Positions 3,071 through 56,778 of a stretch of DNA of 64,000 bases are shown piece after piece (within the stretch, counting starts at the first letter, position 1; every line of letters begins with the position of its first letter). The notes beneath the pieces were generated by a model. The model was given only the letters and a program-made list of their open reading frames with translations, was not told where the DNA came from and ran no database searches. The DNA comes from a virus (taxonomy: Duplodnaviria; Caudoviricetes): positions 1,126 through 65,125 of the IMG/VR virus record IMGVR_UViG_3300043438_001421; one strand, 5' to 3'. The position numbers and the translations under genes are program-made.

Positions 3071-3144
3071 GGACACTTAGCTCAGTTGGTTAGAGCGTCT
3101 CGTTTACACCGAGAGGGTCGGGGGTTCGAATCCCTCAGTGTCCA
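3071..3144 (+). tRNA. tRNA-Val(TAC)
   Basis: Acceptor GGACACT/AGTGTCC, D-arm TAGCTCAGTTGGTTAGAGC, anticodon arm TCTCG-ttTACac-CGAGA, GGTTCGAATCC T-loop; CCA not encoded. Confidence 0.95.
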
Positions 3145-3146
3145 CT

Positions 3147-5722: not shown

Positions 5723-5919
5723 TGGTTGCAAAATCGGTTCTATGTTTAAATAAAAATCATTCAGAGTGCAAGACAGATCATTGCCAGTGTTCATGTCATC
5801 ATGAGCACAATTGTGACTGCTTTGCTTGCAAGATAAGATCTATTAGCTTCGGAGATGTTCCGGGCGGATATAAATCTAATAATGTTAGTTCTTCTTCTAG
5901 AAAGAAGGAAGACTTCTAG
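5722..5919 (+). CDS. small Cys/His-rich protein
   Basis: CLNKNHSECKTDHCQCSCHHEHNCDCFACK; GTG start overlaps the thyX stop. Confidence 0.6.
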   Translation: MVAKSVLCLNKNHSECKTDHCQCSCHHEHNCDCFACKIRSISFGDVPGGYKSNNVSSSSRKKEDF

Positions 5920-6003
5920 GAAGGGTGGCAGAGCGGACGAATGCGTCGGTCTTGAAAACCGTTGTGGGGCAACTCACCGTGGGTTCGAATCCCACCCCTT
6001 CCA
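5919..6003 (+). tRNA. tRNA-Ser(TGA)
   Basis: Acceptor GGAAGGG/CCCTTCC, anticodon CGGT-ctTGAaa-ACCG, long variable arm, GGTTCGAATCC. Confidence 0.9.
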
Positions 6004-6063
6004 CGGGCTTTTTATAATTGATAATGATATACTAGTTATGTTCTTAGGAGGAATATAAAACTT

Positions 6064-12193: not shown

Positions 12194-12267
12194 CCGGCAG
12201 TAGCTCAGTTGGTGAGAGCACAAGTCTTATATACTTGCGGTCGGTGGTTCAATCCCACCCTGCCGGA
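12194..12267 (+). tRNA. tRNA-Ile(TAT)
   Basis: Acceptor CCGGCAG/CTGCCGG plus A73, D-arm TAGCTCAGTTGGTGAGAGC, anticodon arm CAAGT-ctTATat-ACTTG, T-arm GGTGG-TTCAATC-CCACC. Confidence 0.88.
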
Positions 12268-12280
12268 CTAAGGAGTTTAT

Positions 12281-13502: not shown

Positions 13503-14687
13503 ATGTCCGATTCAATAAAAGTATTAGTTTTTTCAGATCAGCAGATTGAGGCATTGAGCTCAGATCTGCTTTCAAGATTTTCTATCGATATCAAGCCTTG
13601 TGATAATTTTGTAAATAAGGCTTTGTCTGAAAATAAACCTAATGTAATTCTTACATTTGGAGTTCTTGAAGACCATCCATCATTGGCTGATCAACCTCTT
13701 TGGATTAGAAAAAAGTGGATTCATATTGATGACTTCACAGTCACTCCAGAGCAAATAGCTTCATTGATTGAAGGATGCTTTGCTTCTCTTTTCCATGATA
13801 CAAGAGAGTTTACTGAGCCATTAGTTTCTATTATTACCCCAACTTTTAATACAAAAAATATATTTTGGCCGTATAGATCTGTCGCTGGTCAGGAGTACAA
13901 GAATATTGAGTGGATCATCTATGATGACGGTTCCGATAGCGAAGACACTATCAACTCAATCAAGCAGATTGCTTCTGTAGACCCTAGGATAAAAGTATTT
14001 TTTGCTGAGCACTCCGGATCAATCGGAGAGGTTAAGCACAATGCCTTTATGCTTGCTGAAGGGGAGATTCTTGTAGAACTTGATCATGATGACGAACTTA
14101 CTCCTTGGTGTGTTTCTTCAATTGTTGAGGCTTTCACCAAATTCCCCGACGCCGGCTTCGCCTACACAGACTGCGCCGAAGTGATTGGCGATGAACACGA
14201 AAATGCATCATACCCTGATGGCTGGGGATTTGGATACGGCAGTTATCGCTCCGAGTTTTGGCGTGGACGGGATTATCTAGTGTCTAACTATCCAGATATT
14301 AACTCCAAGACTATCCGGCATATCGTAGGTGTACCTAATCATGCTAGGGCGTGGAATGCAGCCTTCTACAAGTTAATTGGCGGACACAATAAGAGCCTCT
14401 TTGTCGCTGATGATTATGAGCTTTTGGTTAGAACTTGGCTTTCAACTCCTATGGTTCATATTCGTCGCTTCGGGTATATTCAGTATCATCATGAGAACAA
14501 TACTCAAAAGAAGCGCAATGCTGAAATACAAAATCTTGTTGCTTTGATTCACAGATCATATGAAGATAAAATTCATCAAACATTTTTAGATTTTGAAATT
14601 GACGATTTTATATGGCAAGATGGCGTGCTGAATTGGGGTATTGAGAATCCCGAACAAACTCCCATCACTAACTATGTAATGGATTAA
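13503..14687 (+). CDS. glycosyltransferase family 2 with N-terminal extension
   Basis: PLVSIITPTFN, EWIIYDDGS, VELDHDDEL, ADDYELLVR. Confidence 0.9.
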   Translation: MSDSIKVLVFSDQQIEALSSDLLSRFSIDIKPCDNFVNKALSENKPNVILTFGVLEDHPSLADQPLWIRKKWIHIDDFTVTPEQIASLIEGCFASLFHDTREFTEPLVSIITPTFNTKNIFWPYRSVAGQEYKNIEWIIYDDGSDSEDTINSIKQIASVDPRIKVFFAEHSGSIGEVKHNAFMLAEGEILVELDHDDELTPWCVSSIVEAFTKFPDAGFAYTDCAEVIGDEHENASYPDGWGFGYGSYRSEFWRGRDYLVSNYPDINSKTIRHIVGVPNHARAWNAAFYKLIGGHNKSLFVADDYELLVRTWLSTPMVHIRRFGYIQYHHENNTQKKRNAEIQNLVALIHRSYEDKIHQTFLDFEIDDFIWQDGVLNWGIENPEQTPITNYVMD

Positions 14688-14691: not shown

Positions 14692-14859
14692 ATGAAATTT
14701 GTAAAAGGTAACGCTAATAAGGGCTACTCAGTTGGCCACGATAGAAAAATGCGGGCGCATAATCCCCGATTAGTTATTCCAGAGTCTGAGGTAGTTACTA
14801 GACAGATGACTGAGCAAGACTGGATTCGTTTCTACGAAAATAAACGTAAGACTAAATAA
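14692..14859 (+). CDS. 55-aa basic peptide A (paralog pair; not in the ORF track)
   Basis: MKFVKGNANKGYSVGHDRKMRAHNPRLVIPESEVVTRQMTEQDWIRFYENKRKTK*; clear paralog immediately downstream. Confidence 0.75.
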   Translation: MKFVKGNANKGYSVGHDRKMRAHNPRLVIPESEVVTRQMTEQDWIRFYENKRKTK

Positions 14860-14876: not shown

Positions 14877-15044
14877 ATGAGACACATTAAAGGTAGTACG
14901 GGAAAAAAGACATATTGGGTTAGCGGAGGAAAAGCTATCCATAAGCCTCGCCTTCGGGTTGCTCCGTCTAAAGCGTCTACTAGAAAGATGACTGAAGAAG
15001 ACTGGATTCGCTTTTACGAGAATAAGCGTAAGAGGAAGAAGTAA
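14877..15044 (+). CDS. 55-aa basic peptide B (paralog pair; not in the ORF track)
   Basis: MRHIKGSTGKKTYWVSGGKAIHKPRLRVAPSKASTRKMTEEDWIRFYENKRKRKK*. Confidence 0.75.
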   Translation: MRHIKGSTGKKTYWVSGGKAIHKPRLRVAPSKASTRKMTEEDWIRFYENKRKRKK

Positions 15045-15048: not shown

Positions 15049-15130
15049 GCGGGCGTGGTGGAAATGGTATACACAGGAGGCTTAAAACTTCCCGCCTTTT
15101 GGATTGTGGGTTCGAATCCCACCGCCCGCA
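15049..15130 (+). tRNA. tRNA-Leu(TAA)
   Basis: Acceptor GCGGGCG/CGCCCGC, anticodon GGAGG-ctTAAaa-CTTCC, variable arm, GGTTCGAATCC. Confidence 0.92.
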
Positions 15131-15149
15131 CTTTTCAAAGGAGAAAGCA

Positions 15150-15379: not shown

Positions 15380-15453
15380 GTCCTTGTAGCTCAGCGGATT
15401 AGAGCGGATGGTTTCTACCCATTAGGTCGGGAGTTCGAATCTCTCCAAGGACG
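15380..15453 (+). tRNA. tRNA-Arg(TCT)
   Basis: Acceptor GTCCTTG/CAAGGAC, anticodon GATGG-ttTCTac-CCATT, GTTCGAATC. Confidence 0.92.
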
Positions 15454-15484
15454 CCTGAAAATATCAAATATGATATAATCATTT

Positions 15485-15889
15485 ATGGCTGGAATTATTG
15501 TAGATATTGATGGAACATTACTCAGTGGCAATAATGGCATTGATAAGACTATTGCTTGGGTTAATGAGAAGTCAAAGAGCTATACTATCTATCTGGTGAC
15601 TGGTAGACCAGAAGAAGATAGAGCCAAAACGACAAGAGCTCTCAAGTCAAATGGCGTCAAATATAATAGGCTCTATATGAATGATAAATATAAAGATCAT
15701 GAGTATACTATGGAGCATAAGAGAAATAAAGCAACAGAGTTATTGAAAGATGACAATATCATATTGGCTGTAGATAATGATCCTGATGCTAGAGCAGTAT
15801 ACTCAAGACTTGGTATCCCAACCAAGAATCCATCAAGCTTGCCGAAGACTGTTGCCAAAATTGAAGGACTATGGCAGGGTTTATTTTAA
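15485..15889 (+). CDS. HAD-family phosphatase (PNKP 3'-phosphatase-like)
   Basis: IVDIDGTL, LVTGRPE, conserved K, AVDNDP HAD motifs I-IV; C-terminus IEGLWQGLF. Confidence 0.88.
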   Translation: MAGIIVDIDGTLLSGNNGIDKTIAWVNEKSKSYTIYLVTGRPEEDRAKTTRALKSNGVKYNRLYMNDKYKDHEYTMEHKRNKATELLKDDNIILAVDNDPDARAVYSRLGIPTKNPSSLPKTVAKIEGLWQGLF

Positions 15890-19401: not shown

Positions 19402-19737
19402 ATGAGTAAAAAGCTTAAAAAAATAGACTTCGTTGTAGAAGATCTTCGGGGCGTTTGTCTCTGGGAGATGCCTGACGGCACTCTTATTGGCGACGGAGAT
19501 GGGAGATTCTTATCACTTGAAGGTGATCTCAATTCTCCTATCATTGAATCGAAGATGAGAGATGCTGCTGTTGGATACGTTGGAATGCTCGCCTTAGATG
19601 GTGAGCCGATGTGGATTCCCGGTAGCAGAAAGATCACTGACAACGAAGCTGATGATCATACGGAAAGATTTATCGATGGCTATATTCCCGATCCAGTTGA
19701 TTCGGTGAAGCAATTGGCCCGAAAAGGGATGATATGA
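19402..19737 (+). CDS. hypothetical protein upstream of portal
   Basis: 111-aa ORF coupled to the portal (ATGA overlap); leaderless-type promoter upstream. Confidence 0.75.
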   Translation: MSKKLKKIDFVVEDLRGVCLWEMPDGTLIGDGDGRFLSLEGDLNSPIIESKMRDAAVGYVGMLALDGEPMWIPGSRKITDNEADDHTERFIDGYIPDPVDSVKQLARKGMI

Positions 19738-21407
19738 GAAGGATTACTGCAGCTTTAGCTGAAGAGAATACCAGTACTATTGAGATCGATGATATTACTA
19801 GTTCGTACACCGCCGATTTTACTAGAAAAGTTGTTGAGGATAAAGACATCTTCAAGAAGAAGATTGATGTATCCAACCAGTCGAAGCGCGTAAAGAATAA
19901 ATTTTACAAAATCAAGAAAAGATATCAAACAGGCGCTAGCGGAGCTGAGTCTGATTTCGTAGATCCAGAGGTTGTCAACGGGTATGGAATGTTCGATCTT
20001 GTCGAACCTCCATACAATCTTGAGGTGTTGGCTTCTTTGTTTGAAGAGAATGCTATCCATAATGCAACTATCTTGGCTAGAACAATGAATACTGTTGCCT
20101 TGGGATACGTCTGGGAAAACACGTCGAAGAGCAATAAAAGAATCGAAAGAGCCACTACCAAAGAGGGTGAATCACTCTCCAGACTTCGCGACGAGCTCCA
20201 GAAAGAAGAAGAGCGACTTGAATCTATCTTCGATGATCTTAATATTGACGAAGATTTCATCGAAACTCTTATAAAAGTTTGGATTGACTATTTAACCATT
20301 GGTAATGGTTATCTTGAAATTGGTAGAAATAGAAATGGAAGCATTGGTTATATTGGTCATATTCCAGGCGCATATGTAAGAGTTCGTAGAGCTAGAGATG
20401 GCTTTGTTCAAAAGGCTGGACTGAAGTTTACTTTCTTCAGAAACTTCCAAGATTTGGATACGCCAGATCAGATAAACGATGATAAGAATCCTAATGAAAT
20501 AATTCACTTTAAGCAATACACTCCAACGAACACCTACTATGGTGTTCCATCCGCTGTATCAGCGATTAGCTCTATTGTCGGAGATAAGTTTGCTAAAGAA
20601 TATAACATTGATTATTTTGAAAACAAGAGCATTCCCCGTTACGCAATTATCCTGAAAGGTGCCAATCTTTCTCAGAAGTCAAAGCAAGAAGTTGTTAATT
20701 ATTTCAAGAATGAAATCAAGGGCAACAATCACGGAACTCTTTTCGTTCCGCTTCCCGCCACTCTTGGCCGGGATGTAGATATTAAGTTTGAAAAGCTTGA
20801 GAACAATGTTCAGGAAGCTTCTTTCGATAAGTATCGTAAGTCAAATAGAGATGAGATCACAGTTGCGAACAGAGTGCCAGCGCCGAAGATTGGTATTTAT
20901 GATAATGCAAACTTAGCTGTCTCTAGAGATGCTGACAAGACTTTTAAGAATCAAGTTGTTGGACCTGATCAAAAAGTTATCGAGAAGAAGCTCAACAGAA
21001 TTGTAAGAGAGTTCAGCGATAAGAAGCAACTTAAGTTTGCAGAAATCGATGTAATTGATGAGGATCTGCGTTCAAGAATTTGGGATCGTTATCTTCGTAC
21101 AGAGGTTATTACGCCCAATGAGGTCAGAGGCAAGATCGGCATGACTGCCCTTGAATCTGGCGATGCCGTCCTTCCTTATCCAAGTAGGCTTACGAAGGAA
21201 AAGCAAGATTTCGAGATGGGCGTAGCAGAGCAGACTGGAGATCCAATGCCAGACAATGGCGGAGCTCCGGTTGGCAATACTAATGCTCAATCTGCAAGTC
21301 CGCCCAAGTCGGGCCAAGATAGTGCTGCTGGTGAATCATCACCTGCAGATCAAACAACAGGAAGGGCAGAGCGGGGAGCCAATCAAGACTCCAATCCGCC
21401 TGTATAA
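19734..21407 (+). CDS. portal protein (PBSX-like)
   Basis: VEPPYNL..L, GNGYLEI.R, NEIIHFKQY.P...YYGVP, YFENKSIP, VITPNEVR.KIGM. Confidence 0.92.
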   Translation: MRRITAALAEENTSTIEIDDITSSYTADFTRKVVEDKDIFKKKIDVSNQSKRVKNKFYKIKKRYQTGASGAESDFVDPEVVNGYGMFDLVEPPYNLEVLASLFEENAIHNATILARTMNTVALGYVWENTSKSNKRIERATTKEGESLSRLRDELQKEEERLESIFDDLNIDEDFIETLIKVWIDYLTIGNGYLEIGRNRNGSIGYIGHIPGAYVRVRRARDGFVQKAGLKFTFFRNFQDLDTPDQINDDKNPNEIIHFKQYTPTNTYYGVPSAVSAISSIVGDKFAKEYNIDYFENKSIPRYAIILKGANLSQKSKQEVVNYFKNEIKGNNHGTLFVPLPATLGRDVDIKFEKLENNVQEASFDKYRKSNRDEITVANRVPAPKIGIYDNANLAVSRDADKTFKNQVVGPDQKVIEKKLNRIVREFSDKKQLKFAEIDVIDEDLRSRIWDRYLRTEVITPNEVRGKIGMTALESGDAVLPYPSRLTKEKQDFEMGVAEQTGDPMPDNGGAPVGNTNAQSASPPKSGQDSAAGESSPADQTTGRAERGANQDSNPPV

Positions 21408-21684: not shown

Positions 21685-22023
21685 ATGGCAGCACCAGCGA
21701 ATTATCCATTATCAATTAGAATTGGCGATACTGAGACGGTATCTGTTACGCTTCAAGATGCCGATGGTGTTGCTATCAACATCACTGGAAGAACCTATTC
21801 AGCGCAGGTTAGAGAGAAGGCAAGTTCTGATTCTGCACTTGCTTCATTTACTTGTTCAGTAGTAAATGCTGCTCAAGGGAAGTTCGCTTGCACCTTGTCG
21901 TCAGCAACTACAACGGCTCTTTCGCCAGCAAATGCCGTATGGGATCTTCAGGAGAATAATGGAGGGGTGATCACAACTTTGATGGCGGGCGAAGCTGTGA
22001 TCTCTAGAGATGTAACTAGATGA
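21685..22023 (+). CDS. fibre adaptor / BppU-N-like protein 1
   Basis: [16 protein letters not shown]...G.F...LSSATT..L...VWDLQ...G...ISRDVT. Confidence 0.7.
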
Positions 22024-25000
22024 GCGATAACGTCACACTTAGGGTAGTTGAATCTCTTGTTCTTCGCCCTAGTGGTGACGGTGTTGTTCTTCAGAAAGTT
22101 GAGCCCGACACAGTTTTTTTGCAACAGAATATTGATGTTGCGATTTTGCGGGTTGATACTGATGATGTAATTATCAGACCTTCTGAAGAAGTTGTCCTTA
22201 AAAAAGATTCTGTTGACATTATTGCTTCAGGAGTTTCTGGTCCTATGGGGCCTCAAGGTGTTCAGGGGCCTCAAGGACCCGGTGGATTTGTTGGGTCCGA
22301 TGGTGCTCAGGGGCCGCAAGGTCCTCAAGGACCTTTTGGTGGTCCACAGGGTACACAAGGTCCTCAAGGCCCGCAAGGCGCTCAGGGATCTCAAGGCCCG
22401 CAAGGATCGCAAGGTTCGACTGGTGTTCAAGGTGCAACTGGCGCTACCGGGGCGACTGGAGCACAAGGTTCTCAGGGGCCTCAAGGAACGCAAGGTCCGC
22501 AGGGTTCTCAGGGTGCTACTGGTTCAATTGGTCTGACTGGCGCTCAAGGAAGTCAAGGCCCGCAAGGAGCACAGGGATCTCAAGGACCTCAAGGAACTCA
22601 GGGTGCTACTGGTTCGCAAGGCGCTACTGGCTCTCAGGGCTCTACTGGTGTGACTGGAGCGCAAGGCGCTCAAGGTCCGCAAGGAGCAATTGGCGCTACA
22701 GGTATTCAAGGAAGTCAGGGTCCTCAAGGCGCTATTGGGGCGACGGGGGCTCAGGGCAATGAAGGCCCTCAGGGTGCTCAAGGACCAAAGGGCTCACAAG
22801 GTGCAACAGGTGCAACTGGGCCTCAAGGTTTTCAGGGTCCACAAGGAGATCAAGGTCCTCAGGGAGCACAATCAACTGTTCAGGGTCCACAAGGAACTCA
22901 AGGCCCTCAGGGGCCTCAAGGCGCACAAGGATCAACTGGTGCAGCCTCTACTGTAGCAGGCCCTCAAGGCCCACAAGGCTCTCAGGGAATTCAGGGCCCT
23001 CAAGGTCCTCAAGGTCCTCAGGGTGCAACTGGAGCTCAGGGGGCGACGGGAGCGCAAGGTTCAACTGGCGCTCAAGGTTCTCAAGGTCCACAGGGACCTC
23101 AAGGATCAACTGGTTCCCAAGGTGCTACTGGATCTCAAGGTGTCATAGGAGATCAAGGTCCTCAAGGTACACAGGGTCCTATTGGAGCAACTGGTCTTAC
23201 TGGAGCGCAAGGTAGTCAAGGCCCTCAAGGCCCTCAAGGCCCTCAAGGCCCTCAAGGCAATCAAGGCCCTCAAGGTTCTACAGGAGCGGAATCCACTGTT
23301 CCCGGACCTCAAGGCGTTCAGGGGCCGCAAGGTTCTCAAGGATCTCAAGGGGCAACTGGCTCGCAAGGAACTCAGGGCCCTCAGGGAAGTGCTGGCGTTC
23401 AAGGGACTCAGGGACCTCAGGGTTCTCAAGGTGTCGCTGGATCGCAAGGTCCTCAAGGACCTGAGGGATCTCAGGGCAGTCAAGGATTTCAGGGCGCAAA
23501 TGGTGCTCAAGGACCCGCTGGTCCTCAGGGATCTCAAGGTTCAACGGGATCACAAGGAAGTCAAGGTCCCCAAGGTCCTGCTGGCGTTCAAGGAACACAG
23601 GGTCCTGAAGGAGCGCAGGGTGCCAATGGTCCTCAGGGCGATCAGGGCCCTCAAGGTGTTGTTGGAGCGCAAGGATCTACTGGTGCCCAAGGTTCGCAAG
23701 GCCCACAAGGCTCTCAGGGTGCGACGGGCGCTCAAGGATCTCAAGGTCCTCAGGGGTCACAAGGCTCTGTTGGTCCACAGGGAGATCAAGGGCCTGTTGG
23801 TTCACAAGGAAGTCAAGGTCCTGCCGGAGTCCAAGGTTCGCAAGGCCCTCAAGGGCCACAAGGTGCTGTCGGCTCCACTGGCGCTCAAGGTGATCAAGGC
23901 CCGATTGGCCCTCAAGGTAATCAGGGGCCTCAGGGTAATGTTGGGGCACAAGGTTCTCAGGGGCCACAGGGCGCATCTGGATCTACTGGTGCTCAGGGAA
24001 GTCAGGGTCCTCAGGGGCCACAAGGTTCTCAGGGTTCCGTTGGTCCTCAAGGTAGTCAAGGTTCATCTGGAGAGCAAGGAGATCAAGGCCCACAAGGACC
24101 TGTTGGCTCACAAGGAAGTCAAGGTCCTTCCGGGCCTCAGGGTAGCCAAGGTCCTCAGGGCATTGGTGGTGATCAAGGTGTTCAAGGACCTCAAGGACCT
24201 AATGGTAGTCAAGGAGCTCAAGGTTTTCAAGGCCCGCAAGGCGCTACTGGCAATACTGGCCCTCAAGGTTTTCAAGGCCCGCAAGGCGCTACTGGCGATA
24301 CTGGCCCGCAAGGTGTTCAAGGCCCGACTGGCCCGCAAGGCGATCAAGGCCCACAAGGCTCTACTGGTTCTACTGGCCCAACTGGCCCCCAAGGTTTTCA
24401 AGGCCCGCAAGGCGATACTGGCCAGCAAGGTTTTCAAGGCCCGACTGGCCCGCAAGGCGATCAAGGCCCACAAGGCTCTACTGGTTCTACTGGCCCAACT
24501 GGCCCACAAGGTTTTCAAGGCTCTACTGGCCTGACTGGCGATACTGGCCCGCAAGGCGATCAAGGCCCACAAGGCTCTACTGGTTCTACTGGCCCAACTG
24601 GCCCACAAGGAACACAAGGTCCTCAAGGACCACAGTCTACTGTAGCAGGTCCTCAAGGAGTACAAGGCGCTCAAGGTCCTCAAGGTCCTCAAGGTCCACA
24701 AGGTGCAACCGGAACGCAAGGAGCGGGCGGGGCGTTGGGGTATTGGGGTTCTTTCTATGACATGACGGATCAGCCATTAGTTTCTACAACTGTTGCCCAA
24801 GTTGTTTCTATTGGATCAACTGCTGATGGAAATGGTGTCACCGTTGAGAGTGGCGATGAGATCACCTTCGCTTATGCCGGCGTCTACAGTCTTACGTTCT
24901 CTATACAGGTAACTAACTATGCAAACTCTGTTGAGAAGTCAATCTTTTGGCTCAAGTTGAATGGATCGGATTATCCAGATTCTGCTACAGAAATGGATCT

Positions 25001-26765
25001 ACAACCTAGGAAAAGTTCATCCGAACCGAATCGTCAAGTCATAACTATCAATTATGTTGCCGAAGCTTCTGATGGTGATGCTGTTCAGGTTTATTGGAGC
25101 GGAACTAGTACTGAACTAAAGGTTGAGTCTCTTCCCGCTGGTACTTCTCCCGTCAGCCCAGCAGTTCCGTCGATTATTTTAACTGCTACTCAGGTTCTTT
25201 ATACTCAGGTTGGTCCTCAAGGATATCAAGGACCTCAGGGTCCTGCTGGTGTTCAGGGCAGTCAAGGGCCGCAAGGTCCGCAGGGTGCTCAGTCTACTGT
25301 TCAAGGCCCACAAGGCGATCAAGGCCCTCAAGGAGCTACCGGATCGCAAGGTGCTCAAGGCCCACAAGGTTCTACTGGCTCACAAGGCAGTCAAGGCCCG
25401 CAAGGCGCTACTGGCTCACAAGGCAGTCAAGGCCCGCAGGGCCCGATTGGCCCGCAAGGCGCTACTGGCTCACAAGGCAGTCAAGGCCCGCAGGGCCCGA
25501 TTGGCCCGCAAGGCGATCAAGGCCCGCAAGGCAGTCAAGGCCCGCAAGGCGCTACTGGCTCACAAGGCAGTCAAGGCCCGCAGGGCCCGATTGGCCCGCA
25601 AGGCGATCAAGGCCCGCAGGGCCCGATTGGCCCGCAAGGCGATCAAGGCCCGCAAGGCGATCAAGGCCCGCAAGGCAGTCAAGGCCCGCAAGGCGATCAA
25701 GGCCCGCAAGGCGATCAAGGCCCGCAAGGCGATCAAGGCCCGCAAGGCAGTCAAGGCCCGCAAGGCGCTACTGGCTCACAAGGCAGTCAAGGCCCGCAGG
25801 GCCCGATTGGCCCGCAAGGCGATCAAGGCCCGCAAGGCAGTCAAGGCCCGCAAGGCGCTACTGGCTCACAAGGCAGTCAAGGCCCGCAAGGATCGCAGGG
25901 CGATGTTGGCCCGATGGGGCCGCAAGGTGCTGCTGGCCTTAATGGATCAGATGGAGCGCAAGGTCCGCAAGGCGCTACTGGCCCGCAAGGTTCTCAAGGT
26001 CCGCAAGGCGCTACTGGCGCTCAAGGAGCTGTTGGCTCCCAAGGTGTTCAAGGCCCACAAGGCCCGCAAGGATCTCAAGGCTCTACTGGATCAACGGGTC
26101 CGACTGGATCTCTTATAGCTTATGCCGGATCTTCTGCGCCATCTGGGTGGCTTTTATGTGATGGCTCTGCGGTATCAAGAAGCACCTATGCCGACCTGTT
26201 TGCAGTAACTTCTACGACTTACGGCGTAGGCAATGGATCAACCACATTCAACCTGCCCGATCTTCGTGGACGTGTTCCTGTCGGCTTAGATAACATGGGC
26301 GGAACAGACGCTGCACGACTTTCTGTTGCAAATACTCTCGGCGGATCAGGTGGAGCTGAAACTCATACGCTAACTTCTTCTGAAATTCCGGCGCATAGCC
26401 ACGCAAATACCCTCGGAAGCAACACAGTTGCCTCAACTTCGCATACGCACACTGAAGGAAATCTTGCCACTGCAATCGGCGCTGTCAATAATGACGCTGG
26501 AACAATCGGGTACGAGTCAGGAACCCCTAGGCCAAACAGTAGAGGCCCTGTTTCTACTACTAACTATGTTGCTACAGGATTAACTATTTACAACGGCGCT
26601 TTTGGCCCTCTTACCTTTAATCACTATACAAGAGCATACGGAACAACAAGTGGCCCGACAGGATCTACTACTGTAAGTATCACAAATGCCAATAATACTG
26701 GCGGCGGCGGGTCACATAATAATATGCAGCCATATATCTTGATCAACTATATTATCAAGACTTAA
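22020..26765 (+). CDS. giant collagen-like fibre protein with internal C1q/BclA-like domain and C-terminal tail-collar domain
   Basis: More than 1000 aa of Gly-X-Y (GPQ/GSQ/GAT); globular insert at about 24730-25205; [20 protein letters not shown]...[14 protein letters not shown] collar and [14 protein letters not shown] end. Confidence 0.9.
25370..25890 (+). repeat. near-perfect tandem 9-bp-unit repeats (GGCCCGCAA/GGCGATCAA/GGCAGTCAA) inside the collagen gene
   Basis: Homogeneous codon usage and repeated multi-unit blocks. Confidence 0.85.
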
Positions 26766-26812: not shown

Positions 26813-27277
26813 ATGACTACTATTGTTAATGACGTTTCTGATGTAGGTATTTATAATATTGTGGGGGATCAAGGAACAACCTTTATCCGCCAAATTGTCT
26901 ACAAGAATTCTGCTGGGACTGCGATTAATCTTGGCACTGGCGCTTCTGCTCATATGATGGCTAGAAAGTCGTATCCCGCAACTCTGAAGACTGCGGCCTA
27001 CAGAAGTGATCCTGTTATCTGGATAAGTTCTGACGATCTTCAATACATCGGATCAACACAGGCAATTACTCTCACTCCAGCTACCGGAATAATTAATATT
27101 TCAATCCCGTCATCTTTGATGGGAAGCGTTGAAGCCGGTATATATGATTATGATCTTGAAGTTAGACTTGGAACATCCCCCGGAGTTGGTTCTGCCGGGA
27201 ATATTATTAAAATTATTCGCGGTTTATTTGAAGTAAGACAGCAGATGACGTACTTTAGTGGAGAGTATTATTACTAA
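26813..27277 (+). CDS. fibre adaptor / BppU-N-like protein 2
   Basis: DQGTTF...GTAINL...A.MMAR...G.INISIPSS...GIYDYDLEV...IIRGLFEV; similar to 21685..22023. Confidence 0.7.
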
Positions 27278-29613
27278 TGACTGAGGTTAATCAAACCACT
27301 AACGAAATTACTGTAAGTGGTATTGATACTACAGTTAGTGTTTCCCCCACTGCTGCTGGCCCTAATGTTACTGTTAATCGGGGGGTTCAGGCGATTACTG
27401 TTAGTCCTTCTGCTGTTGCTTCTGAGGCTTCTATTGGCATGGTTGGTCCGCAGGGTCCGCAGGGACCTATTGGTGACGGATCTGCTACTGTTTCTATTGG
27501 GACTACTACGACTGGATCTCCCGGTTCTTCTGCCGTTGTAGTTAATAGCGGAACTTCGACTGCTGCTATTTTAGACTTTACTCTTCCCAGAGGCGCTCAA
27601 GGGTTTCAGGGTCCTCAGGGCCCGCAGGGTGATCAAGGCCCGCAGGGCGCTCCATCATTTATAGAAGGTCCTGTAGGTCCGCAAGGATCGCAAGGTGCAA
27701 CTGGCGCTACTGGGTCGCAGGGGCCTCAGGGCGCTCAGGGCCCAGCGGGAATTGCTGGAGAGCAAGGCCCTCAAGGATTCCAAGGGCCTCAAGGCGCTCA
27801 GGGGCCTCAGGGATATCAGGGGTCTCAAGGGTATCAGGGAGATATGGGTCCACCCGGATTTCAAGGCGCTACTGGCGCTCAAGGCGCTCAAGGTGCCACT
27901 GGTCCTCAAGGCCCTCAAGGCTCGCAAGGCGCTCAGGGGGCCGACTCATTTGCTCCCGGTCCTCAAGGACCTCAGGGTCCTCAAGGACCTTTTGGTATTC
28001 AAGGCTATCAGGGAGAGCAAGGAGTTGTAGGCCCGCCCGGTCCTCAAGGCGATCAAGGCTCTCAAGGTCCGCAAGGTCCTCAGGGAGCGCAGGGTTCAAT
28101 TGGAGCGCAAGGCTCTCAGGGGCCTCAAGGACCAGAAGGATCTCAGGGATTTCAAGGTGTTCCGGGGCCGCAAGGTGATCAGGGATCGCAGGGGCCTCAA
28201 GGTCCTCAGGGAGCACAGGGTCCTCAAGGTCCTCAAGGTCCTCAAGGTCCTCAAGGAGATCAAGGACCTCAATCTACTGTTCAAGGACCTCAAGGAACCC
28301 AAGGTCCGCAAGGCCCGCAGGGCGCTACTGGCCCGCAAGGCGCTCAAGGCCCGCAGGGCGATGTTGGTCCGATGGGGCCGCAAGGCGCTGCTGGCCTTAA
28401 TGGATCAGATGGCCCGCAAGGCCCGCAAGGTCCACAAGGCCCTCAATCAACTGTTCAAGGCCCGCAGGGCCCGCAAGGCCCGCAGGGAACTCAAGGCCCT
28501 CAAGGCCCGCAAGGAACTCAAGGCCCACAAGGTGCCGGAGTTCCAGTAAGTGGAACACAAGGACAGATTATTGTTAAAAACAGTGCCACAAATTATGACA
28601 CTGTTTGGTCTAATAATTATGCTGGGTTTAAAAACTTTTTAATGAACGGAGATTTTCGCATTAATCAACGCGGATGGACATCTTCGACGGCATCTGGCAC
28701 ATATGGATTTGATCGCTGGAAACAGAGCAATGTTGGTGGCACAGTCACCATGACTCCGCAAAACTTTACGGTTGGATCTGGTCCTTCTTCTGATCATCAG
28801 CCGCAAAGATTTTTGAGAATTGTCACAAGCGGTCAATCCTCTACGAATAATGCCATTGTGGTTCAGGGCATTGAGGATGTTCGACTTCTTGCCGGAAAGA
28901 CTGTAACTGTTTCTTTTTGGGCCAAGTCTGGCTCCAGTACTCCGAGAGTTGCAGTTCAGTTTGAGCAGAATTATGGATCTGGCGGGAGCCCTAGTGCTTC
29001 CACTTACACCTCAGTGAGCTATGGAAGTATCTTATCAACAAGCTGGCAGCGTTTTACTGTAACACTTGCAATTCCATCAATTTCCGGGAAGACAATCGGA
29101 ACTACTGCAAATACTTCATATACTGCTTTATCATTGATTGTATCTAATGGTTCAGACGGAACGATTGGCATTCAAAACAATACTTTTGATTTCTGGGGTG
29201 TTCAGGTAGAAGAAGGATCGTATGCATCTTCATTTGAGGAGCGTCCTCTTCAGCTAGAGCTTGCAATGTGTCAAAGATATTATTATCGCCAAAATGGTAC
29301 TACGGGGAGCAGTTATGAGCATTTTGGAATTCCGGGTGTAGTCGCTGTATCAGGTAATGCTAACCGTAATGGTTGGCAAGTCCCTGTTCCTCCAAGAAGA
29401 GCAGTTGTTTCTGCTGATGTATCAAGTAGTAGTATAGATGTTTATGATGGTGGTGGCCCGTATGCCCTTACTATAACAAATATTTATCATATAGCTGGAA
29501 ATACTCAGATTGGCTTTGATGGGACTTTTACTGGCGGGTCAGTAGGGAGACCTTCTATTCCTCTGTTTAGAAATACATCAGGAGCTTTCATCGCTTTCAA
29601 TGTAGACTTCTAA
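27277..29613 (+). CDS. collagen-like fibre protein with C-terminal carbohydrate-binding-like domain
   Basis: About 310 aa of Gly-X-Y; [15 protein letters not shown]...[29 protein letters not shown]...ELAMCQRYY. Confidence 0.88.
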
Positions 29614-29659: not shown

Positions 29660-32263
29660 ATGACGATGCACTCAGCGGACTTAAATTTTACTTTCCCGTT
29701 TCAAAAAATTAATCAAGAGCAGCGAATCGTAACTGGTATTGCTACAGCCGATAACGTGGATCTTGCAGATGATATTGTTAACTTTGACGCCTCAGTTGAG
29801 GCTTTCTCTAATTGGGTGGGGAACATTCGAGAAATGCACTCTCCTATCGCAGTTGGAAAGCTTGTTGATTGGAAGTCAGTTCCGGTTGAACATAACGGCC
29901 AAATGTATCGTGGCATCGAAGTTTCCGTTTATATCTCTAAGGGTGCCGAGAATACTTGGCAGAAGATCCTTGATGGAACACTTCGTGGCTTTTCTATCGG
30001 TGGCATGGTTCAGGATAGGAAGACTAGGTTTATGGAAAAACTTGGGCGGAATATTAATGAAATTGTTCGTTATACTCTTGGTGAGCTTAGTGTTGTTGAT
30101 AATCCATGTAATCCTGCTGGAATGTTCGCTATGATCAAGAGTGTTGATGGCCAACTTGAGTATGTTGGCGAAAATCTTCAAGATGTTTTTTATTGTGAAG
30201 ATGACAAGTACGCTTCTGTTGGCGCAGATAGCGCTTGCCCTGCTTGCTCTGAGGAAATGGTTATCATTGGTCGGACAGAGACATTTGATAGTGTGCAAAT
30301 AAATAAGTTTATATCTTATTATGAAGATATTATGACGAAAGCTCTTTCCGATATTAATACTGTCCCCACTGACGCTATGGCCGCAGAGGCTCGTCGTGGT
30401 CTTGAGTGGAGAAGAGAATTTAATCGTGGCGGAACTGCTGTAGGTGTTGCTAGAGCTAGAGATATTATGAATAAAGATAGACTTAGTATCTCAACTGTTC
30501 GCAGAATGCACTCATTCTTTTCCCGCCATGAAGTTGATAAGCAGGGCAAGGGCTTCACTCCGGGAGATGGTTATCCTAGCGCCGGACGGATCGCTTGGGC
30601 TTTGTGGGGCGGAGATCCCGGTCAGACTTGGGCGCGCGCCATCACTAATAGAATTAAGGCTATGGAAAAGGCTGTCGGTACTGATGTCGAAGGAATGACT
30701 GTCGATGGGCCTTCTGAGATGATCTCGGAGACTACTAAGGCTGCAGCGAAGCGCGGAGATTTTGTTTCTTGGAATTCTTCTGGCGGAACTGCGCGGGGCA
30801 AGGTTGTGCGAGTTGAGAGAAGCGGAGAGATCGACGTTCCGAATTCAGACTTTAGTGTAGCGGGAACTTCGGAAGATCCTGCTCTTTTGATCCAGATTTG
30901 GAGGGAGGGCTCTGAAGGATGGGCTGCTACCGATACTTTTGTTGGCCATAAGTCTTCGACTGTAAGAGCAATTGCTGATCTTGATAAGTCTGTTGACACT
31001 GCTCAAATTGGTGAGGGTGGCGGTGGCATTAAAAATCCCGCTCAAGGCAATGAATTAGATTTTATTATTGGAAAAGTTGTGGTTGAGCGTGACGGAGAGT
31101 TCTGCGTCATGTCTGAAGATGGCTCTAGGAGCTTTGGTTGTTATCCTTCTGAGCGAGAGGCTAATAGCAGACTCGCTGAAGTTGAAAGTTTCAAAGAAAT
31201 GAATAAGGCTACTACTAAGCGCGAAGATGGAGAAGATTTTCCTGCCGCCGCTTTCGCCTATGTTCCAGATCCTGAGTCGCCTTCTACATGGAAGCTGCGT
31301 CTTTGGGACAGTCTTGATGAAAAAGAGACTGTTGCACAAGTTTCCCGCGCCGTTTCGGCTTTAAGCCCTTCCGGTTTTCGGGGAAATAGAGTTCAGATTC
31401 CCGCAGAGGATCTTGCTTCTGTTAAAGCAAAAGTTCGTGCAGCTTGGCGTCAGGTTAATGGACCTGATCGTGAGTTGCCTGCAATTCTGAAGAGAGATAA
31501 CTCCAATTATTTGGAAGACATCATAGAGAAAGGAGGCACAGATTCTATGAATTTGCAAGAAAATGAAATTAATGATAATGTAAATACTATGTCGGAAGAT
31601 TTAACGGAAACACAAAAGCAGAGCATCCTGTCGAAGATGGGAGAATTTATTTTTGGTAAGCAAGAGTCAATTGAAAAGGCTCAGACTATCGAAGTAAATA
31701 CTGCTAATGGCAACTTTAGAGTTGTCACTGATGGTTCTATGGCAAATCCTCCGCAGGTTGTTCTCAACATGGTCGATGTCGGCGCTGTTGAAGAAAAAGC
31801 TGGCCATATGGGCATGGATGAAGAAATGAAGTCATCCGGCGAAGATATGGTAGGAAAGTCTGAAGATGCTGGTACAGAAGAGGCTGCAACTGACGTTGTA
31901 GAAAAGTCTGAATCAGTTGATTCGGTTGATGAAGGAGAAGAAATGGATTTTGAAAAGGTACTTGAAGGCCTGAGCAATCTCCTTGACGAGAAGCTTGAGA
32001 AGGTAAAGGCAGAAATTACAGCAGAGGTTGACGGGAAGATCGAGTCCATCGAAAAGTCCGTTTCTGAGGTAAAGGAATCAGCCGAGGAAATCTCAAGCGA
32101 TCTTGAAAAGGTTGCTAACTCAGGTGCAGAGAAGAAGTCAGCTGATGTAGAAGCTGATGTTGTTGAAGAAGAGGTTCTCGAAAAGAGCGCCGATTCTGAA
32201 GGTTTCTGGGGCGGAATTTTTGTTCCCGTCGCAGTTGCTAAAGTTTTAGGCTACGATTCATAA
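29660..32263 (+). CDS. prohead protease fused to several accessory domains and a C-terminal acidic scaffold
   Basis: HK97-type protease motifs IREMH, GFSIGG, ELSVVDNPCN in aa 1-160; acidic coiled-coil C-terminus directly before the capsid gene. Confidence 0.9.
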   Translation: MTMHSADLNFTFPFQKINQEQRIVTGIATADNVDLADDIVNFDASVEAFSNWVGNIREMHSPIAVGKLVDWKSVPVEHNGQMYRGIEVSVYISKGAENTWQKILDGTLRGFSIGGMVQDRKTRFMEKLGRNINEIVRYTLGELSVVDNPCNPAGMFAMIKSVDGQLEYVGENLQDVFYCEDDKYASVGADSACPACSEEMVIIGRTETFDSVQINKFISYYEDIMTKALSDINTVPTDAMAAEARRGLEWRREFNRGGTAVGVARARDIMNKDRLSISTVRRMHSFFSRHEVDKQGKGFTPGDGYPSAGRIAWALWGGDPGQTWARAITNRIKAMEKAVGTDVEGMTVDGPSEMISETTKAAAKRGDFVSWNSSGGTARGKVVRVERSGEIDVPNSDFSVAGTSEDPALLIQIWREGSEGWAATDTFVGHKSSTVRAIADLDKSVDTAQIGEGGGGIKNPAQGNELDFIIGKVVVERDGEFCVMSEDGSRSFGCYPSEREANSRLAEVESFKEMNKATTKREDGEDFPAAAFAYVPDPESPSTWKLRLWDSLDEKETVAQVSRAVSALSPSGFRGNRVQIPAEDLASVKAKVRAAWRQVNGPDRELPAILKRDNSNYLEDIIEKGGTDSMNLQENEINDNVNTMSEDLTETQKQSILSKMGEFIFGKQESIEKAQTIEVNTANGNFRVVTDGSMANPPQVVLNMVDVGAVEEKAGHMGMDEEMKSSGEDMVGKSEDAGTEEAATDVVEKSESVDSVDEGEEMDFEKVLEGLSNLLDEKLEKVKAEITAEVDGKIESIEKSVSEVKESAEEISSDLEKVANSGAEKKSADVEADVVEEEVLEKSADSEGFWGGIFVPVAVAKVLGYDS

Positions 32264-32277: not shown

Positions 32278-33300
32278 ATGAGCAGCAAAGATTTATTAGA
32301 AAAGGTAATTAATACTACTCAGATTGGCGCCGGTTCAGGCGGTATTCTGAATGCAAAGCAGGCAAATCGTTTTATCGATTTTGTTTTCGATCAATCTGTC
32401 CTTATGAAGACGGCTCGCATCGTTCGTATGAACGAGCCAACCATCGACATTGATAAGGTTGATATCGGCCAGCGCATTATGCGCAAGGCTACTGAAGGTA
32501 CGGATGATGGCAGCAATGCTGATCCCACTTTCACGAAGATTTCTATGACCACCGTTAAGCTTCGCCTTGATTGGGAGCTTACCACTGAGGGTCTGGAAGA
32601 CAATATTGAAGGTGACTCTCTGGAAGACCATGTAGCATCGCTTATGGCCCGCCAGACTGCAAATGATCTTGAGGATCTTTTGATTCACGGTGATACCTCG
32701 GAGACTGGCCTTCCGTTGATTAAGGCTCTTAATGGCTTCCGTAAGCTTGCTAGAGCCAATGGCGTTGTTGTAGACGCCGCTGGTGCAAACCTCACTCGCG
32801 CAGTATTTGATGCAGCGCTTCGTGATATGCCCAATAAGTACCTGCAGCGTCGGTCACAGCTTGCGTTCTCAACGTCAAGCTCGTTGCTTCAGGATTATAT
32901 TCACAGTCTTACTCTTGATGTTGCCGCTAATGGTGGCCCTTCTGCTGGTTCTGTTCTTGGCGATGCTATCGTCAATCAGGGCCTTGGTGGAGGTCAGGGT
33001 GGCGGTGCTGGTACGGCTTATGTCGCTGGCATTCGTCCATTCGGTATCCCGCTTCTTGAGATTCCTCTTTACGAGGAGACTGAGACTGGCTCATACACCG
33101 CTGCTACTGGTCAGCATGGTGTTGTTGAACTTACGTTCCCGCAGAACCGCATCGTCGGTATGCAGCGTGACATTGTTGTCTATCGTGAGTTTAAGCCCAA
33201 GAAGGATGCTATTGAGTACACTCAGTTCATTCGGGTTGCTTGTCAGATCGAAAATGCCGCTGCTTACGTTCACGTTCGCAACGTCAAGGTTCGTTCATAG
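32278..33300 (+). CDS. major capsid protein (HK97 fold)
   Basis: GGILNAKQANRFID, LEDNIEG..LEDH...MARQTANDLEDL.IHGD; strong RBS; terminator follows. Confidence 0.92.
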   Translation: MSSKDLLEKVINTTQIGAGSGGILNAKQANRFIDFVFDQSVLMKTARIVRMNEPTIDIDKVDIGQRIMRKATEGTDDGSNADPTFTKISMTTVKLRLDWELTTEGLEDNIEGDSLEDHVASLMARQTANDLEDLLIHGDTSETGLPLIKALNGFRKLARANGVVVDAAGANLTRAVFDAALRDMPNKYLQRRSQLAFSTSSSLLQDYIHSLTLDVAANGGPSAGSVLGDAIVNQGLGGGQGGGAGTAYVAGIRPFGIPLLEIPLYEETETGSYTAATGQHGVVELTFPQNRIVGMQRDIVVYREFKPKKDAIEYTQFIRVACQIENAAAYVHVRNVKVRS

Positions 33301-56754: not shown

Positions 56755-56778
56755 CCTGACTGTATAAGGATATGTGAT

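What the first reader, a model, noticed from the sequence alone, without database searches (positions are those of the whole stretch)
15863..15889. HAD phosphatase ends with a copy of the scaffold motif: possible capsid cargo-loading tag
Seen: the stand-alone HAD enzyme has a tail beyond its fold ending ...TVAK-IEGLWQGLF*, and the protease/scaffold polyprotein 16 kb away has ...LEKSADSEGFWGGIF (32198-32221) near its C-terminus. Both fit E-G-[LF]-W-x-G-[LI]-F and are preceded by a hydrophobic-x-K site. Known: scaffold and protease C-termini bind the inner face of HK97-fold coats, and encapsulins load cargo through short terminal peptides. Inference: the phage appends a scaffold-mimicking peptide to unrelated enzymes to package them into the head, possibly for ejection (for example DNA/RNA end-healing against host nucleases). 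I know of no description of this motif as a tag; with only two instances, chance similarity is possible.
Basis: inference. Interest (0 to 1): 0.8.

Follow-up and report, generated by a model that had tools for sequence, protein, structure and literature searches.

The report
Scaffold-like tail on a phage phosphatase
A small phage phosphatase ends in a short peptide copied from the end of the phage's head-scaffolding protein, and comparison with related phages suggests this peptide is a reusable address label that loads enzymes into the virus head.

Summary
The 134-aa HAD phosphatase (15485-15889) ends in EGLWQGLF. The protease-scaffold polyprotein (29660-32263) carries EGFWGGIF 13 residues from its end. 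These are the only two matches in six frames; about 7.6e-5 are expected by chance.

Both copies are conserved:
- All 80 related scaffolds keep the element.
- 26 of 30 HAD homologues keep the tail at the extreme C-terminus, with synonymous codon changes.
- AlphaFold places the tail outside the HAD fold.

The strongest support is comparative:
- 43 of 81 longer relatives have this HAD domain fused to prohead proteases or portals.
- The same kind of tail (K-x-W-x-G-..-F) ends free-standing copies of two other unrelated domains, phrog_2859 and DUF5872, and a Cys-rich protein. These occur in phages of the same capsid family.
- In this window the phrog_2859 domain sits inside the scaffold polyprotein instead.

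Best reading (about 0.57): a modular C-terminal capsid-loading tag derived from the scaffold's end. Binding, packaging, cleavage and ejection are inferred, not shown. In this genome only the HAD carries the tag. This would be a new variant of known capsid-targeting and cargo-loading peptides.

The parts
15485..15889 (+). Stand-alone cap-less HAD phosphatase, 134 aa. Catalytic motifs are D7-x-D9-G-T11, T39-G-R, K79 and D97-N-D99.
   Evidence: ORF. Pfam Acid_phosphat_B 5.5e-7 and Hydrolase_3 2.7e-6. phrog_415 'polynucleotide kinase' 7.6e-13. AF2 mean pLDDT 91.4. Foldseek finds Nir2 LNS2, the T4 Pnkp 3'-phosphatase and Pnkp1. The motif residues are invariant or nearly invariant in alignment A1.
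15845..15886 (+). C-terminal extension beyond the fold (K121-F134). It is a linker K-T-V-A-K-I plus the tag E-G-L-W-Q-G-L-F (15863-15886).
   Evidence: pLDDT is about 45-51 with no secondary structure from residue 121. The tail is conserved in 26 of 30 homologues. Glycine, phenylalanine and leucine codons vary synonymously, and TAA, TGA and TAG stops all fall at the same position. Fused homologues and 3 of 30 stand-alone homologues lack it.
29660..32263 (+). Head maturation protease / cargo / scaffold polyprotein, 867 aa. It contains an XkdF-type protease (aa 7-213), a phrog_2859 domain (aa 229-336), an Hva1_TUDOR domain (aa 366-412), a phrog_19463 region (aa 514-652), and an acidic scaffold region.
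32177..32260 (+). Conserved C-terminal element of the scaffold, L-E-K-S-A-D-S-E-G-F-W-G-G-I-F-V-P-x6-L-G-Y-D-S. Its core is at 32198-32221.
   Evidence: All 80 related polyproteins end with [FIV]W-x-x-x-[FY] followed by ...G-Y-x-[SQ]. The W-G-G-R-F core persists in Streptomyces phage Faust and in G008/G009.
32278..33300 (+). Major capsid protein (phrog_1623 family). It is the presumed target of the scaffold end and of the tag.
   Evidence: 54% identical to the annotated MCPs of Streptomyces phages. phrog_1623 at 3e-84. The same MCP family is present in G001, G007, G008, G009 and G010, which carry tagged proteins.
19734..21407 (+). Portal protein (head module context).
   Evidence: Pfam Phage_portal 8e-28.

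Best explanation
The gene encodes an intact, cap-less HAD phosphatase whose fold resembles the PNKP 3'-phosphatase and LNS2 domains. It has a 14-residue disordered C-terminal extension. The last eight residues copy the core of the conserved C-terminal element of the phage's own protease-scaffold polyprotein.

Most likely the extension is a capsid-loading tag. During procapsid assembly it occupies the site that normally receives the scaffold's C-terminal F-W-G-G-I-F element, most probably on the inner face of the coat protein. A few copies of the enzyme are thereby enclosed. The hydrophobic-x-K just upstream of the tag may be a prohead-protease cleavage site that later frees the enzyme inside the head. 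From there it could leave with the DNA and act early in the next host, for example on 3'-phosphate ends.

The tag would be the non-covalent alternative to what many other phages do covalently, which is to fuse the same HAD domain to the prohead protease or portal.

Shown here: the motif, its conservation in both proteins, its position outside the fold, the fusions, and the same type of tail on other protein families. Inferred: binding partner, packaging, cleavage, ejection and substrate.
For: 1. Motif identity and rarity.
2. The scaffold element is conserved in 80 of 80 related polyproteins, while the rest of the scaffold region varies. The core is kept in Streptomyces phage Faust and in G007/G008/G009.
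3. The HAD tail is kept in 26 of 30 homologues down to 46% identity, always at the extreme C-terminus except for one protein with 5 extra residues. Selection acts at the protein level.
4. The tail lies outside the fold: AF2 gives pLDDT above 90 for the core and about 45-51 for residues 121-134. P0045 has about 70 extra residues between fold and tail.
5. Domain fusions. Of the 150 best representatives from a profile search (1911 hits at E<=1e-3), 81 are longer than 175 aa. Of these, 33 carry Peptidase_S78, 7 Peptidase_S78_2, 1 ClpP and 2 Phage_portal. A tail-less stand-alone HAD lies between terminase and portal in L116.
6. The tail regex hits 10 of 69 short representatives but only 1 of 81 long ones, and that one is not fused to a head protein.
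7. The same kind of tail occurs on other families. In G006, K.{0,6}W.G.{1,2}F occurs 4 times in 12,313 aa, all in the last 24 residues: two HAD paralogues, a phrog_2859-domain protein, and a 411-aa Cys-rich acidic protein ending KKSVWGGTFLPN. Only 3 internal hits were seen in 126,744 aa of five other genomes.
8. Of the 120 best stand-alone phrog_2859 homologues (1166 at E<=1e-5), 95 end in such a tail. Four end in ...EKSFWGGFF-type sequences behind an acidic linker. In this window and in G001, G002 and G004 the same domain is internal to the scaffold polyprotein and has no tail of its own.
9. The complete genomes G008 and G009 have a scaffold ending ...QKS[IL]WGGRF..., plus adjacent phrog_2859 and DUF5872 proteins with K-x-W-x-G-..-F tails. 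They share the MCP family of the window.
10. Background rate: excluding scaffolds and HADs, 1 of 569 predicted ORFs in five genomes has the motif in its last 20 residues. So do 2 of 3690 stop-to-stop ORFs in 110 loci.
Against: - The gene is not in the head module. It follows tRNA-Arg and lies among glycosyltransferase and ribonucleotide-reductase genes. In G006 the tagged genes also sit among sugar-modifying genes.
- Only the first half of the scaffold element is copied. The V-P...L-G-Y-x-S half is missing.
- The residues flanking W differ from the scaffold's: L/F-W-Q/E in the HAD versus F-W-G in the scaffold. In the four genome or sample pairs found, both motifs are almost constant, so no covariation could be shown.
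- In this genome and in G001, G002, G004 and G005, no protein other than the HAD and the scaffold carries the tag. G002 (complete) and G005 lack the HAD altogether.
- In the quick tree the fused HADs cluster apart from the mostly stand-alone clade, so the fusions are relatives and not orthologues.
- 59 of 69 short representatives lack the tail.
- No cultured phage carrying this tagged HAD was found, so no virion proteome bears on it.
Confidence: 0.57

Rival explanations
1. The tail is head-related but does not bind the coat. It would be a docking or substrate signal for the XkdF-type prohead protease, or a contact for scaffold or portal. The enzyme is then recruited or processed through another head component.
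For: The tails and the scaffold element are regularly preceded by hydrophobic-x-K. The coat N-terminus has L-L-E-K-V. Nothing here identifies which partner binds the motif.
Against: C-terminal ends of scaffolds bind coat protein in the solved cases read here: the 80alpha scaffold and SaPI1 CpmB (PMC5644958, passages read). The K lies at a variable distance from W, 2 to 9 residues, and is absent in a few tails.
Confidence: 0.15
2. The HAD is a cytoplasmic or membrane-associated metabolic phosphatase acting on a sugar phosphate, lipid phosphate or nucleotide. It would belong to the glycosylation / nucleotide-metabolism gene block. Its W/F-rich tail would be an interfacial membrane anchor or a contact for another enzyme, and the likeness to the scaffold would be convergent.
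For: The gene neighbours are glycosyltransferases and a class II ribonucleotide reductase. The same kind of neighbourhood is seen in G006. The top structural matches include the lipid phosphatases Nir2 LNS2 and lipin/Pah.
Against: The same tail is at the end of the scaffold, which is not a membrane protein. It also ends domains that elsewhere are internal parts of protease-scaffold polyproteins. The HAD family is repeatedly fused to head proteins. Eight residues with two glycines make a weak anchor.
Confidence: 0.17
3. The two octapeptides are alike by chance and the tail has no specific function.
For: There are only two instances in this genome, and the pattern was defined after the fact.
Against: 0 of 2000 shuffles gave two core matches. 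Both copies are conserved across many relatives with synonymous codon changes. The tryptophan is invariant in the tails of 40 aligned phrog_2859 proteins.
Confidence: 0.03

Closest known systems
Encapsulin cargo-loading (targeting) peptides
   Same: A short, disordered, C-terminal peptide on otherwise unrelated enzymes directs them into an HK97-fold shell (listing and abstracts seen, e.g. PMC7925596). Ferritin-like cargo also appears here, fused to prohead proteases together with the HAD domain.
   Different: Here the shell is a real phage capsid with a protease-scaffold. The peptide copies the scaffold's own end. The sequence (K-x-[FLV]W-x-G-x-F) is unlike the encapsulin peptides as I recall them, which I did not test. 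Binding is not shown.
SaPI1 CpmB versus phage 80alpha scaffolding protein
   Same: A second protein carries a copy of the scaffold's C-terminal coat-binding motif (RIIK helix-and-hook) and binds the coat in the same way (PMC5644958, passages read).
   Different: CpmB is an alternative scaffold of a satellite that changes capsid size. Here the copy sits on enzymes encoded by the phage itself, so the presumed purpose is loading cargo.
Capsid targeting sequences of T4 IPIII and P1 DarB
   Same: Short terminal signals put non-structural proteins, including anti-restriction factors, into the head for delivery with the DNA. They can also carry foreign proteins (PMC9024508, passages read).
   Different: Those signals are N-terminal, are not copies of the scaffold end, and have been shown experimentally.
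HK97 protease C-terminal encapsidation tail (Duda, Oh and Hendrix 2013, J Mol Biol)
   Same: As I recall it, the protease is drawn into the prohead by its C-terminal region. The many HAD-Peptidase_S78 fusions found here would ride in on that.
   Different: The paper is not held. I saw only its citation, so this is recall. The window's protease is XkdF-type with a fused scaffold.
Polyvalent proteins and MuF-fused toxins
   Same: Effector domains are packaged by covalent fusion to head proteins (PMC5512222, passages read; PMC5576092, listing only).
   Different: A whole-word search of PMC5512222 for HAD, phosphatase and ferritin found no such domain. The case here is the non-covalent, tagged form.
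T4 / Pnkp1-type polynucleotide 3'-phosphatase domain
   Same: Cap-less HAD fold. The closest sequence and fold matches include T4 Pnkp and Pnkp1.
   Different: There is no kinase domain. Identity is only 16-21% to the solved structures and 28-37% to annotated phage PNKs. The substrate is unknown.

Membership tests
HAD superfamily phosphatase | Motif I D-x-D-x-T, motif II S/T, motif III K, and the motif IV acidic pair | tested here: met
   D7-I-D9-G-T11, T39, K79 and D97-N-D99 are present in the sequence. They are invariant or at least 90% conserved in A1.
HAD superfamily phosphatase | Rossmann-like HAD core fold | tested here: met
   AF2 gives pLDDT 91.4 and pTM 0.84. Foldseek gives probability 1.00 to HAD domains (9jz1, 5uj0, 4xru), with TM 0.65-0.74 on the query.
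Polynucleotide kinase-phosphatase (PNKP) | P-loop 5'-kinase domain joined to the phosphatase | tested here: not met
   The protein is 134 aa and is the HAD domain alone. Only one distant relative, P0074, carries a P-loop kinase-like domain.
Polynucleotide kinase-phosphatase (PNKP) | 3'-phosphatase activity on DNA or RNA ends | not testable with these tools
   Only the similarity is known.
Capsid-targeting / cargo-loading peptide | Short terminal peptide outside the cargo's fold | tested here: met
   Searches show low pLDDT for the tails. Searches show linkers or insertions between fold and tail.
Capsid-targeting / cargo-loading peptide | The same peptide is found on unrelated cargo proteins of phages with the same shell | tested here: met
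   HAD, phrog_2859, DUF5872 and a Cys-rich protein carry it. The MCP family is shared. Within this window only the HAD carries it.
Capsid-targeting / cargo-loading peptide | The peptide binds the inner face of the shell | not testable with these tools
   This needs a binding assay or a procapsid structure.
Capsid-targeting / cargo-loading peptide | The peptide is necessary and sufficient for enclosure of a protein | not testable with these tools
   This needs co-expression or phage genetics.
Scaffold C-terminus mimic (CpmB-like) | The C-terminus is similar in sequence to the scaffold's conserved C-terminal element | tested here: met
   The only local BLASTP similarity between the G006 411-aa protein and the window polyprotein is this element.
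Scaffold C-terminus mimic (CpmB-like) | Acts as an alternative scaffold that redirects capsid size | not tested
   Nothing in the sequence suggests this. The protein is a globular enzyme.

The most novel reading that the evidence does not exclude
A large clade of mostly uncultured phages shares this coat family and an XkdF-type protease-scaffold, and probably infects actinobacteria. These phages may use one transferable C-terminal address peptide (hydrophobic-x-K, a few residues, then [FLV]-W-x-G-x(1-2)-F) taken from the scaffold's coat-binding end. It would load a changeable set of free-standing cargo proteins into the head: HAD phosphatases, phrog_2859 and DUF5872 domain proteins, and Cys-rich proteins. 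Sister lineages carry the same domains, plus ferritin-like domains, covalently inside protease or portal polyproteins. This would be a natural phage counterpart of encapsulin cargo loading. It would also be a visible intermediate between scaffold-coat recognition and cargo-loading peptides.
Probability: 0.4. Interest if true: 0.85.

Novelty: new variant of a known kind. Interest (0 to 1): 0.72.

Why it matters
If the tag works as proposed, several things follow.
- It gives a simple sequence rule for predicting which phage proteins travel inside the head and reach the next host before any gene is expressed. That class of proteins is hard to find without virion proteomics.
- It applies to more than a thousand database proteins.
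- It offers a short natural peptide for loading foreign proteins into HK97-fold capsids.
- It links three things usually treated apart: scaffold-coat recognition, covalent 'polyvalent' head cargo, and encapsulin cargo-loading peptides. The ferritin-like domains found fused to prohead proteases are part of that link.
- It poses a concrete question: what does a packaged PNKP-like or LNS2-like phosphatase do on entry?

Tried and rejected
- Complex prediction (coat alignment A2 plus HAD residues 96-134 from A1) returned 'no answer' with score 0.00, and the controls were not run. This is neither for nor against binding.
- The covariation test failed for lack of variation. The window, G001 (L002/L034), G007, and two same-sample pairs (L004/L010, L005/L019) all have [SG]FWGG[IVM]F in the scaffold and G[FL]W[QE]G[LI]F in the HAD.
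- I tried to find the scaffolds that go with divergent tails. P0081 and P0134 gave no viral-contig relatives. The metagenome scan with P0150 gave only contigs of at most 2.5 kb. The 39.6-kb viral contig G006 is a fragment without a coat gene of this family.
- A word-based search for longer forms of the HAD found none. The exhaustive profile search later showed many.
- A PSSM built from scaffold motifs alone recovered scaffolds and one HAD. Its other hits were WhiB-like proteins, whose G-V-W-G-G I recall (no tool here tested it) as part of the WhiB-like fold, and a conserved internal W-R-G-E..W motif. I treat both as false positives.
- Looking for a cultured model: Actinomycetia phage DSL-LC01 has the phrog_2859 domain in 'capsid maturation protease' genes, but it has no HAD and no W-G-G tail on the ORFs read. 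In the first 50 kb of Streptomyces phage Faust only the scaffold has the tail. Its 'hydrolase' at the syntenic place is not a HAD. The remaining 80 kb of Faust were not scanned.
- The tree of 144 HAD cores is the quick version, because the careful search did not finish. It is poorly resolved, with 62 of 141 inner branches open. I use it only to say that fused and stand-alone forms mostly separate.
- Literature. No paper in the library holds 'haloacid dehalogenase' together with 'maturation protease', 'capsid' and 'phage' (0 papers). A looser search gave none with the HAD term. The searches found no description of this tag. Papers outside the library, and supplements, were not seen.
- Several minus-strand references that I gave were shifted by one codon, so the first Met was dropped and the stop included. 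This does not affect the family matches.

Full report
**What is in the sequence.**
The ORF at 15485-15889 (+) encodes 134 residues ending ...NPSSLPKTVAKIEGLWQGLF*. The ORF at 29660-32263 (+) encodes 867 residues ending ...VLEKSADSEGFWGGIFVPVAVAKVLGYDS*. It is followed at 32278 by the major capsid protein gene.

- A six-frame scan finds E-G-[LF]-W-x-G-[LI]-F only at 15863-15886 and 32198-32221.
- From the composition of the 74 predicted proteins, 7.6e-5 strict and 0.014 core matches are expected. None of 2000 shuffles gave two core matches.
- The window covers all but 1125 bases of a 65,125-base viral contig. Scanning that contig adds no further tagged gene.

**Identity of the two proteins.**
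The small protein is a HAD phosphatase.
- Pfam gives Acid_phosphat_B and Hydrolase_3, with weak HAD_PNKP.
- PHROGs give phrog_415/505 'polynucleotide kinase'.
- By sequence it is weakly related to the Pnkp1 phosphatase domain.
- Catalytic residues D7, D9, T39, K79, D97 and D99 are conserved.
- The AlphaFold model is confident (mean pLDDT 91.4) for residues 1-120. Residues 121-134 are unstructured, with pLDDT about 45-51.
- The fold has no cap and is closest to Nir2 LNS2, the T4 Pnkp 3'-phosphatase, Pnkp1 and lipin/Pah.

The large protein is a head maturation protease of the XkdF type (Peptidase_S78_2; phrog_9427 at 2e-64). After the protease come a phrog_2859 domain (aa 229-336), an Hva1_TUDOR domain, a phrog_19463 region and an acidic scaffold-like tail.

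The coat protein is 54% identical to the coat proteins of Streptomyces phages of the Stanwilliamsviridae. Gene order in Streptomyces phage Faust matches the window: ThyX, tRNAs, glycosyltransferases, RNR, portal, protease, coat, tail genes, helicase, primase, DnaE.

**Conservation of the scaffold element.**
In 80 viral-contig loci with a related coat gene, the upstream ORF always ends in the same roughly 25-residue element. It reads K-S, a few residues, [FIV]-W-x-x-x-[FY]-[VLI]-[PD], six residues, then G-Y-x-[SQ]. The preceding acidic region varies freely. The close clade reads [SG]FWGG[IVR]F. More distant ones read SFW[NS]N[IVM]Y. Faust ends ...KKSKGSTWGGRFLGLSDLQN. The W-x-G/N-x-F/Y core is therefore the most conserved part of these scaffolds. 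By analogy with solved scaffold ends, it is their likely coat-binding piece (80alpha SP and CpmB, PMC5644958, passages read). That last step is inference.

**Conservation of the HAD tail.**
- Of 30 database homologues (46-97% identical), 26 end in [FLV]W-x-[GDN]-[LI]-F. One has F in place of W, and three stop right after the fold.
- The viral-contig orthologues L001-L005 and L109 keep the tail.
- Their DNA shows synonymous changes in the glycine, phenylalanine and leucine codons. Three different stop codons fall at the same position, so selection acts on the peptide.
- Very divergent stand-alone HADs (25-50% identical to one another) still end in K-x(1-3)-[FLVMA]W-x-G-[ILM]-F.
- One (P0045) has about 70 extra residues between fold and tail. 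One (P0081) ends KKDVWGGTFLPRNGIGMI.

**The HAD family is head-associated elsewhere.**
A profile search of 1.84 billion representatives gave 1911 hits at E<=1e-3.
- Of the best 150, 81 are longer than 175 aa.
- Of those 81, 33 also carry Peptidase_S78, 7 Peptidase_S78_2, 1 ClpP and 2 Phage_portal. That makes 43 of 81 fused to head-assembly proteins.
- 6 of the 81 also carry a ferritin-like domain.
- Single cases carry zeta-toxin-like kinase, NUDIX or GNAT domains.
- Viral contigs show the same architectures.
- In L116 a tail-less stand-alone HAD lies between terminase and portal, upstream of a protease-coat fusion.
- The tail regex hits 10 of 69 short and 1 of 81 long representatives. Fused forms go straight from the fold into a linker.
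- In a quick, poorly resolved tree, the fused forms cluster apart from a mostly stand-alone clade that holds the tailed forms. The tail label needs at least three changes across well-supported branches.

**The same tail on other protein families.**
This is the most telling result.

In the 39.6-kb viral contig G006, the pattern K.{0,6}W.G.{1,2}F occurs four times in 12,313 residues. Each occurrence is in the last 24 residues of a protein:
- HAD1: ...TLKKGAWEGMFI
- HAD2: ...SLTKIGWTGYTF
- a 121-aa phrog_2859-domain protein: ...RIKKDWEGSAFSFESPS
- a 411-aa Cys-rich acidic protein: ...IKKSVWGGTFLPN

Five other genomes gave three internal hits in 126,744 residues.

Stand-alone phrog_2859 proteins are abundant, with 1166 at E<=1e-5. 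Of the best 120, 95 end in W-x-[GDN]-x(1-2)-[FIY], typically ...EKVWQGSPFSFKGE. Four end in ...IEKSFWGGFF-type sequences behind a 25-residue acidic linker, which is the scaffold motif itself. The tryptophan is invariant in 40 aligned members. The AlphaFold model loses confidence from about residue 111.

In this window, and in G001, G002 and G004, the same domain is internal to the scaffold polyprotein. There it aligns only to the domain part of the profile, not to the tail.

Two complete genomes with terminal repeats, G008 and G009, have the window's coat family. Each has a 432-436-aa protease-scaffold (phrog_9427 at 3e-111) ending ...QKS[IL]WGGRFL... Each also has two adjacent small genes. 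One is a phrog_2859 protein, which in G008 carries two tandem tails. The other is a DUF5872 protein ending ...TKSVWDGSMFDT... or ...DNFWNGFLK.

The domain is thus either inside the tagged polyprotein or free with its own tag.

**Background.**
Excluding scaffolds and HADs, 1 of 569 predicted ORFs in five genomes has the motif in its last 20 residues. So do 2 of 3690 stop-to-stop ORFs in 110 loci.

**Interpretation.**
The simplest account is that the tail is a modular capsid-loading tag derived from the scaffold's C-terminal recognition element, and that the HAD is a head cargo. The recurrent hydrophobic-x-K before the motif, in tails and scaffolds alike, fits a protease site that would release the cargo. 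The coat N-terminus reads L-L-E-K-V. This cleavage idea is weak evidence. What the enzyme does is open. The cap-less fold suggests a macromolecular or lipid substrate, and the PNKP likeness makes 3'-end healing plausible.

**Points against.**
- The gene sits among tRNA, glycosyltransferase and RNR genes, not in the head module.
- Only half of the scaffold element is copied.
- No covariation could be shown.
- Relatives with the same scaffold motif can lack the HAD.
- No other protein in this genome is tagged.
- No cultured phage with the tagged HAD was found.

**What is known.**
Known relatives of the idea are:
- the N-terminal capsid-targeting sequences of T4 IPIII and P1 DarB (PMC9024508, passages read);
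- SaPI1 CpmB copying the 80alpha scaffold end;
- encapsulin targeting peptides (abstracts seen);
- covalent head-cargo fusions (PMC5512222, passages read, with no HAD, phosphatase or ferritin mentioned).

Searches of the held library found no description of this tag or of HAD-prohead protease fusions. Duda et al. 2013 could not be read. I therefore rate this as a new variant of a known kind. It is well supported by comparative evidence and untested by experiment.

Noticed in passing
L117:2443-4560, L121:2788-4557; proteins P0050, P0056, P0061, P0100, P0147, P0166: Ferritin-like (Dps-type) domains are fused, together with the HAD domain, to Peptidase_S78 prohead proteases (one, P0050, has no protease match). 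This is a ferritin cargo apparently built into phage heads, reminiscent of encapsulin cargo.
   Followed up: partly
window 30344-30667 (polyprotein aa 229-336): The phrog_2859 domain (R-G-L-x-W-R...G-G-T-x-V-G-V-A-R-A...S-F-F-x-R-H-E-V-D-K) is internal to the scaffold polyprotein here. In over a thousand database entries it is a free 120-aa protein with a W-x-G-S-x-F tail. In cultured Roseobacter, Synechococcus and Vibrio phages it lies under genes annotated as capsid, portal or protease. Its function is unknown.
   Followed up: partly
L222:15035-15466 (G008 35035-35466, minus strand): The phrog_2859 protein of G008 carries two tandem copies of the tail...EKIWEGSAFSL... and ...GKSLWDGSAFRFTKH.
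   Followed up: no
G001 51138-51407, G004 14346-14615, G002 20067-20387: Small four-cysteine proteins with a G-[VL]-W-G-G motif look like WhiB-type regulators. I name them from recall, not from a family search. Together with the coat's likeness to Streptomyces phages and the synteny with phage Faust, this points to an actinobacterial host. No homologue was found in the window's contig.
   Followed up: partly
window 3071-3145, 5919-6004, 12194-12268, 15049-15131, 15380-15455: There are five tRNA genes: Val-TAC, Ser-TGA, Ile-TAT, Leu-TAA and Arg-TCT. The HAD gene starts 30 bases after tRNA-Arg.
   Followed up: no
window 14692-14859 and 14877-15044: Two adjacent 55-aa paralogous ORFs both end ...MTE[QE]DWIRFYENKRK..., just upstream of tRNA-Leu.
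   Followed up: no
window 22020-26765 and 27277-29613: Two very large proteins (1581 and 778 aa) are rich in collagen-like G-P-Q triplets. They lie between portal and protease and are presumably fibres (Pfam Collagen 9e-160 for the first; sequence of the second).
   Followed up: no
window 31600-32200 (scaffold region) and 32278-32310 (coat N-terminus): Hydrophobic-E/x-K-[SVA] strings recur: IEKS, VEKS, LEKV, AEKK, LEKS in the scaffold, and LLEKV at the coat N-terminus. They may be prohead-protease cleavage sites.
   Followed up: no
L135:9332-10567 (G006, minus strand): A 411-aa protein combines an N-terminal C-x-x-C...A-I-C-K-F-W-V-I-P module (also seen at the end of the HAD-containing proteins P0043 and P0054), a very Cys-rich stretch, an acidic run, and the tail KKSVWGGTFLPN. 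It has no family match.
   Followed up: partly
window 56728-57306: A second HAD-type enzyme, an NT5C 5'-nucleotidase (Pfam 2e-7), has no scaffold-like tail.
   Followed up: no
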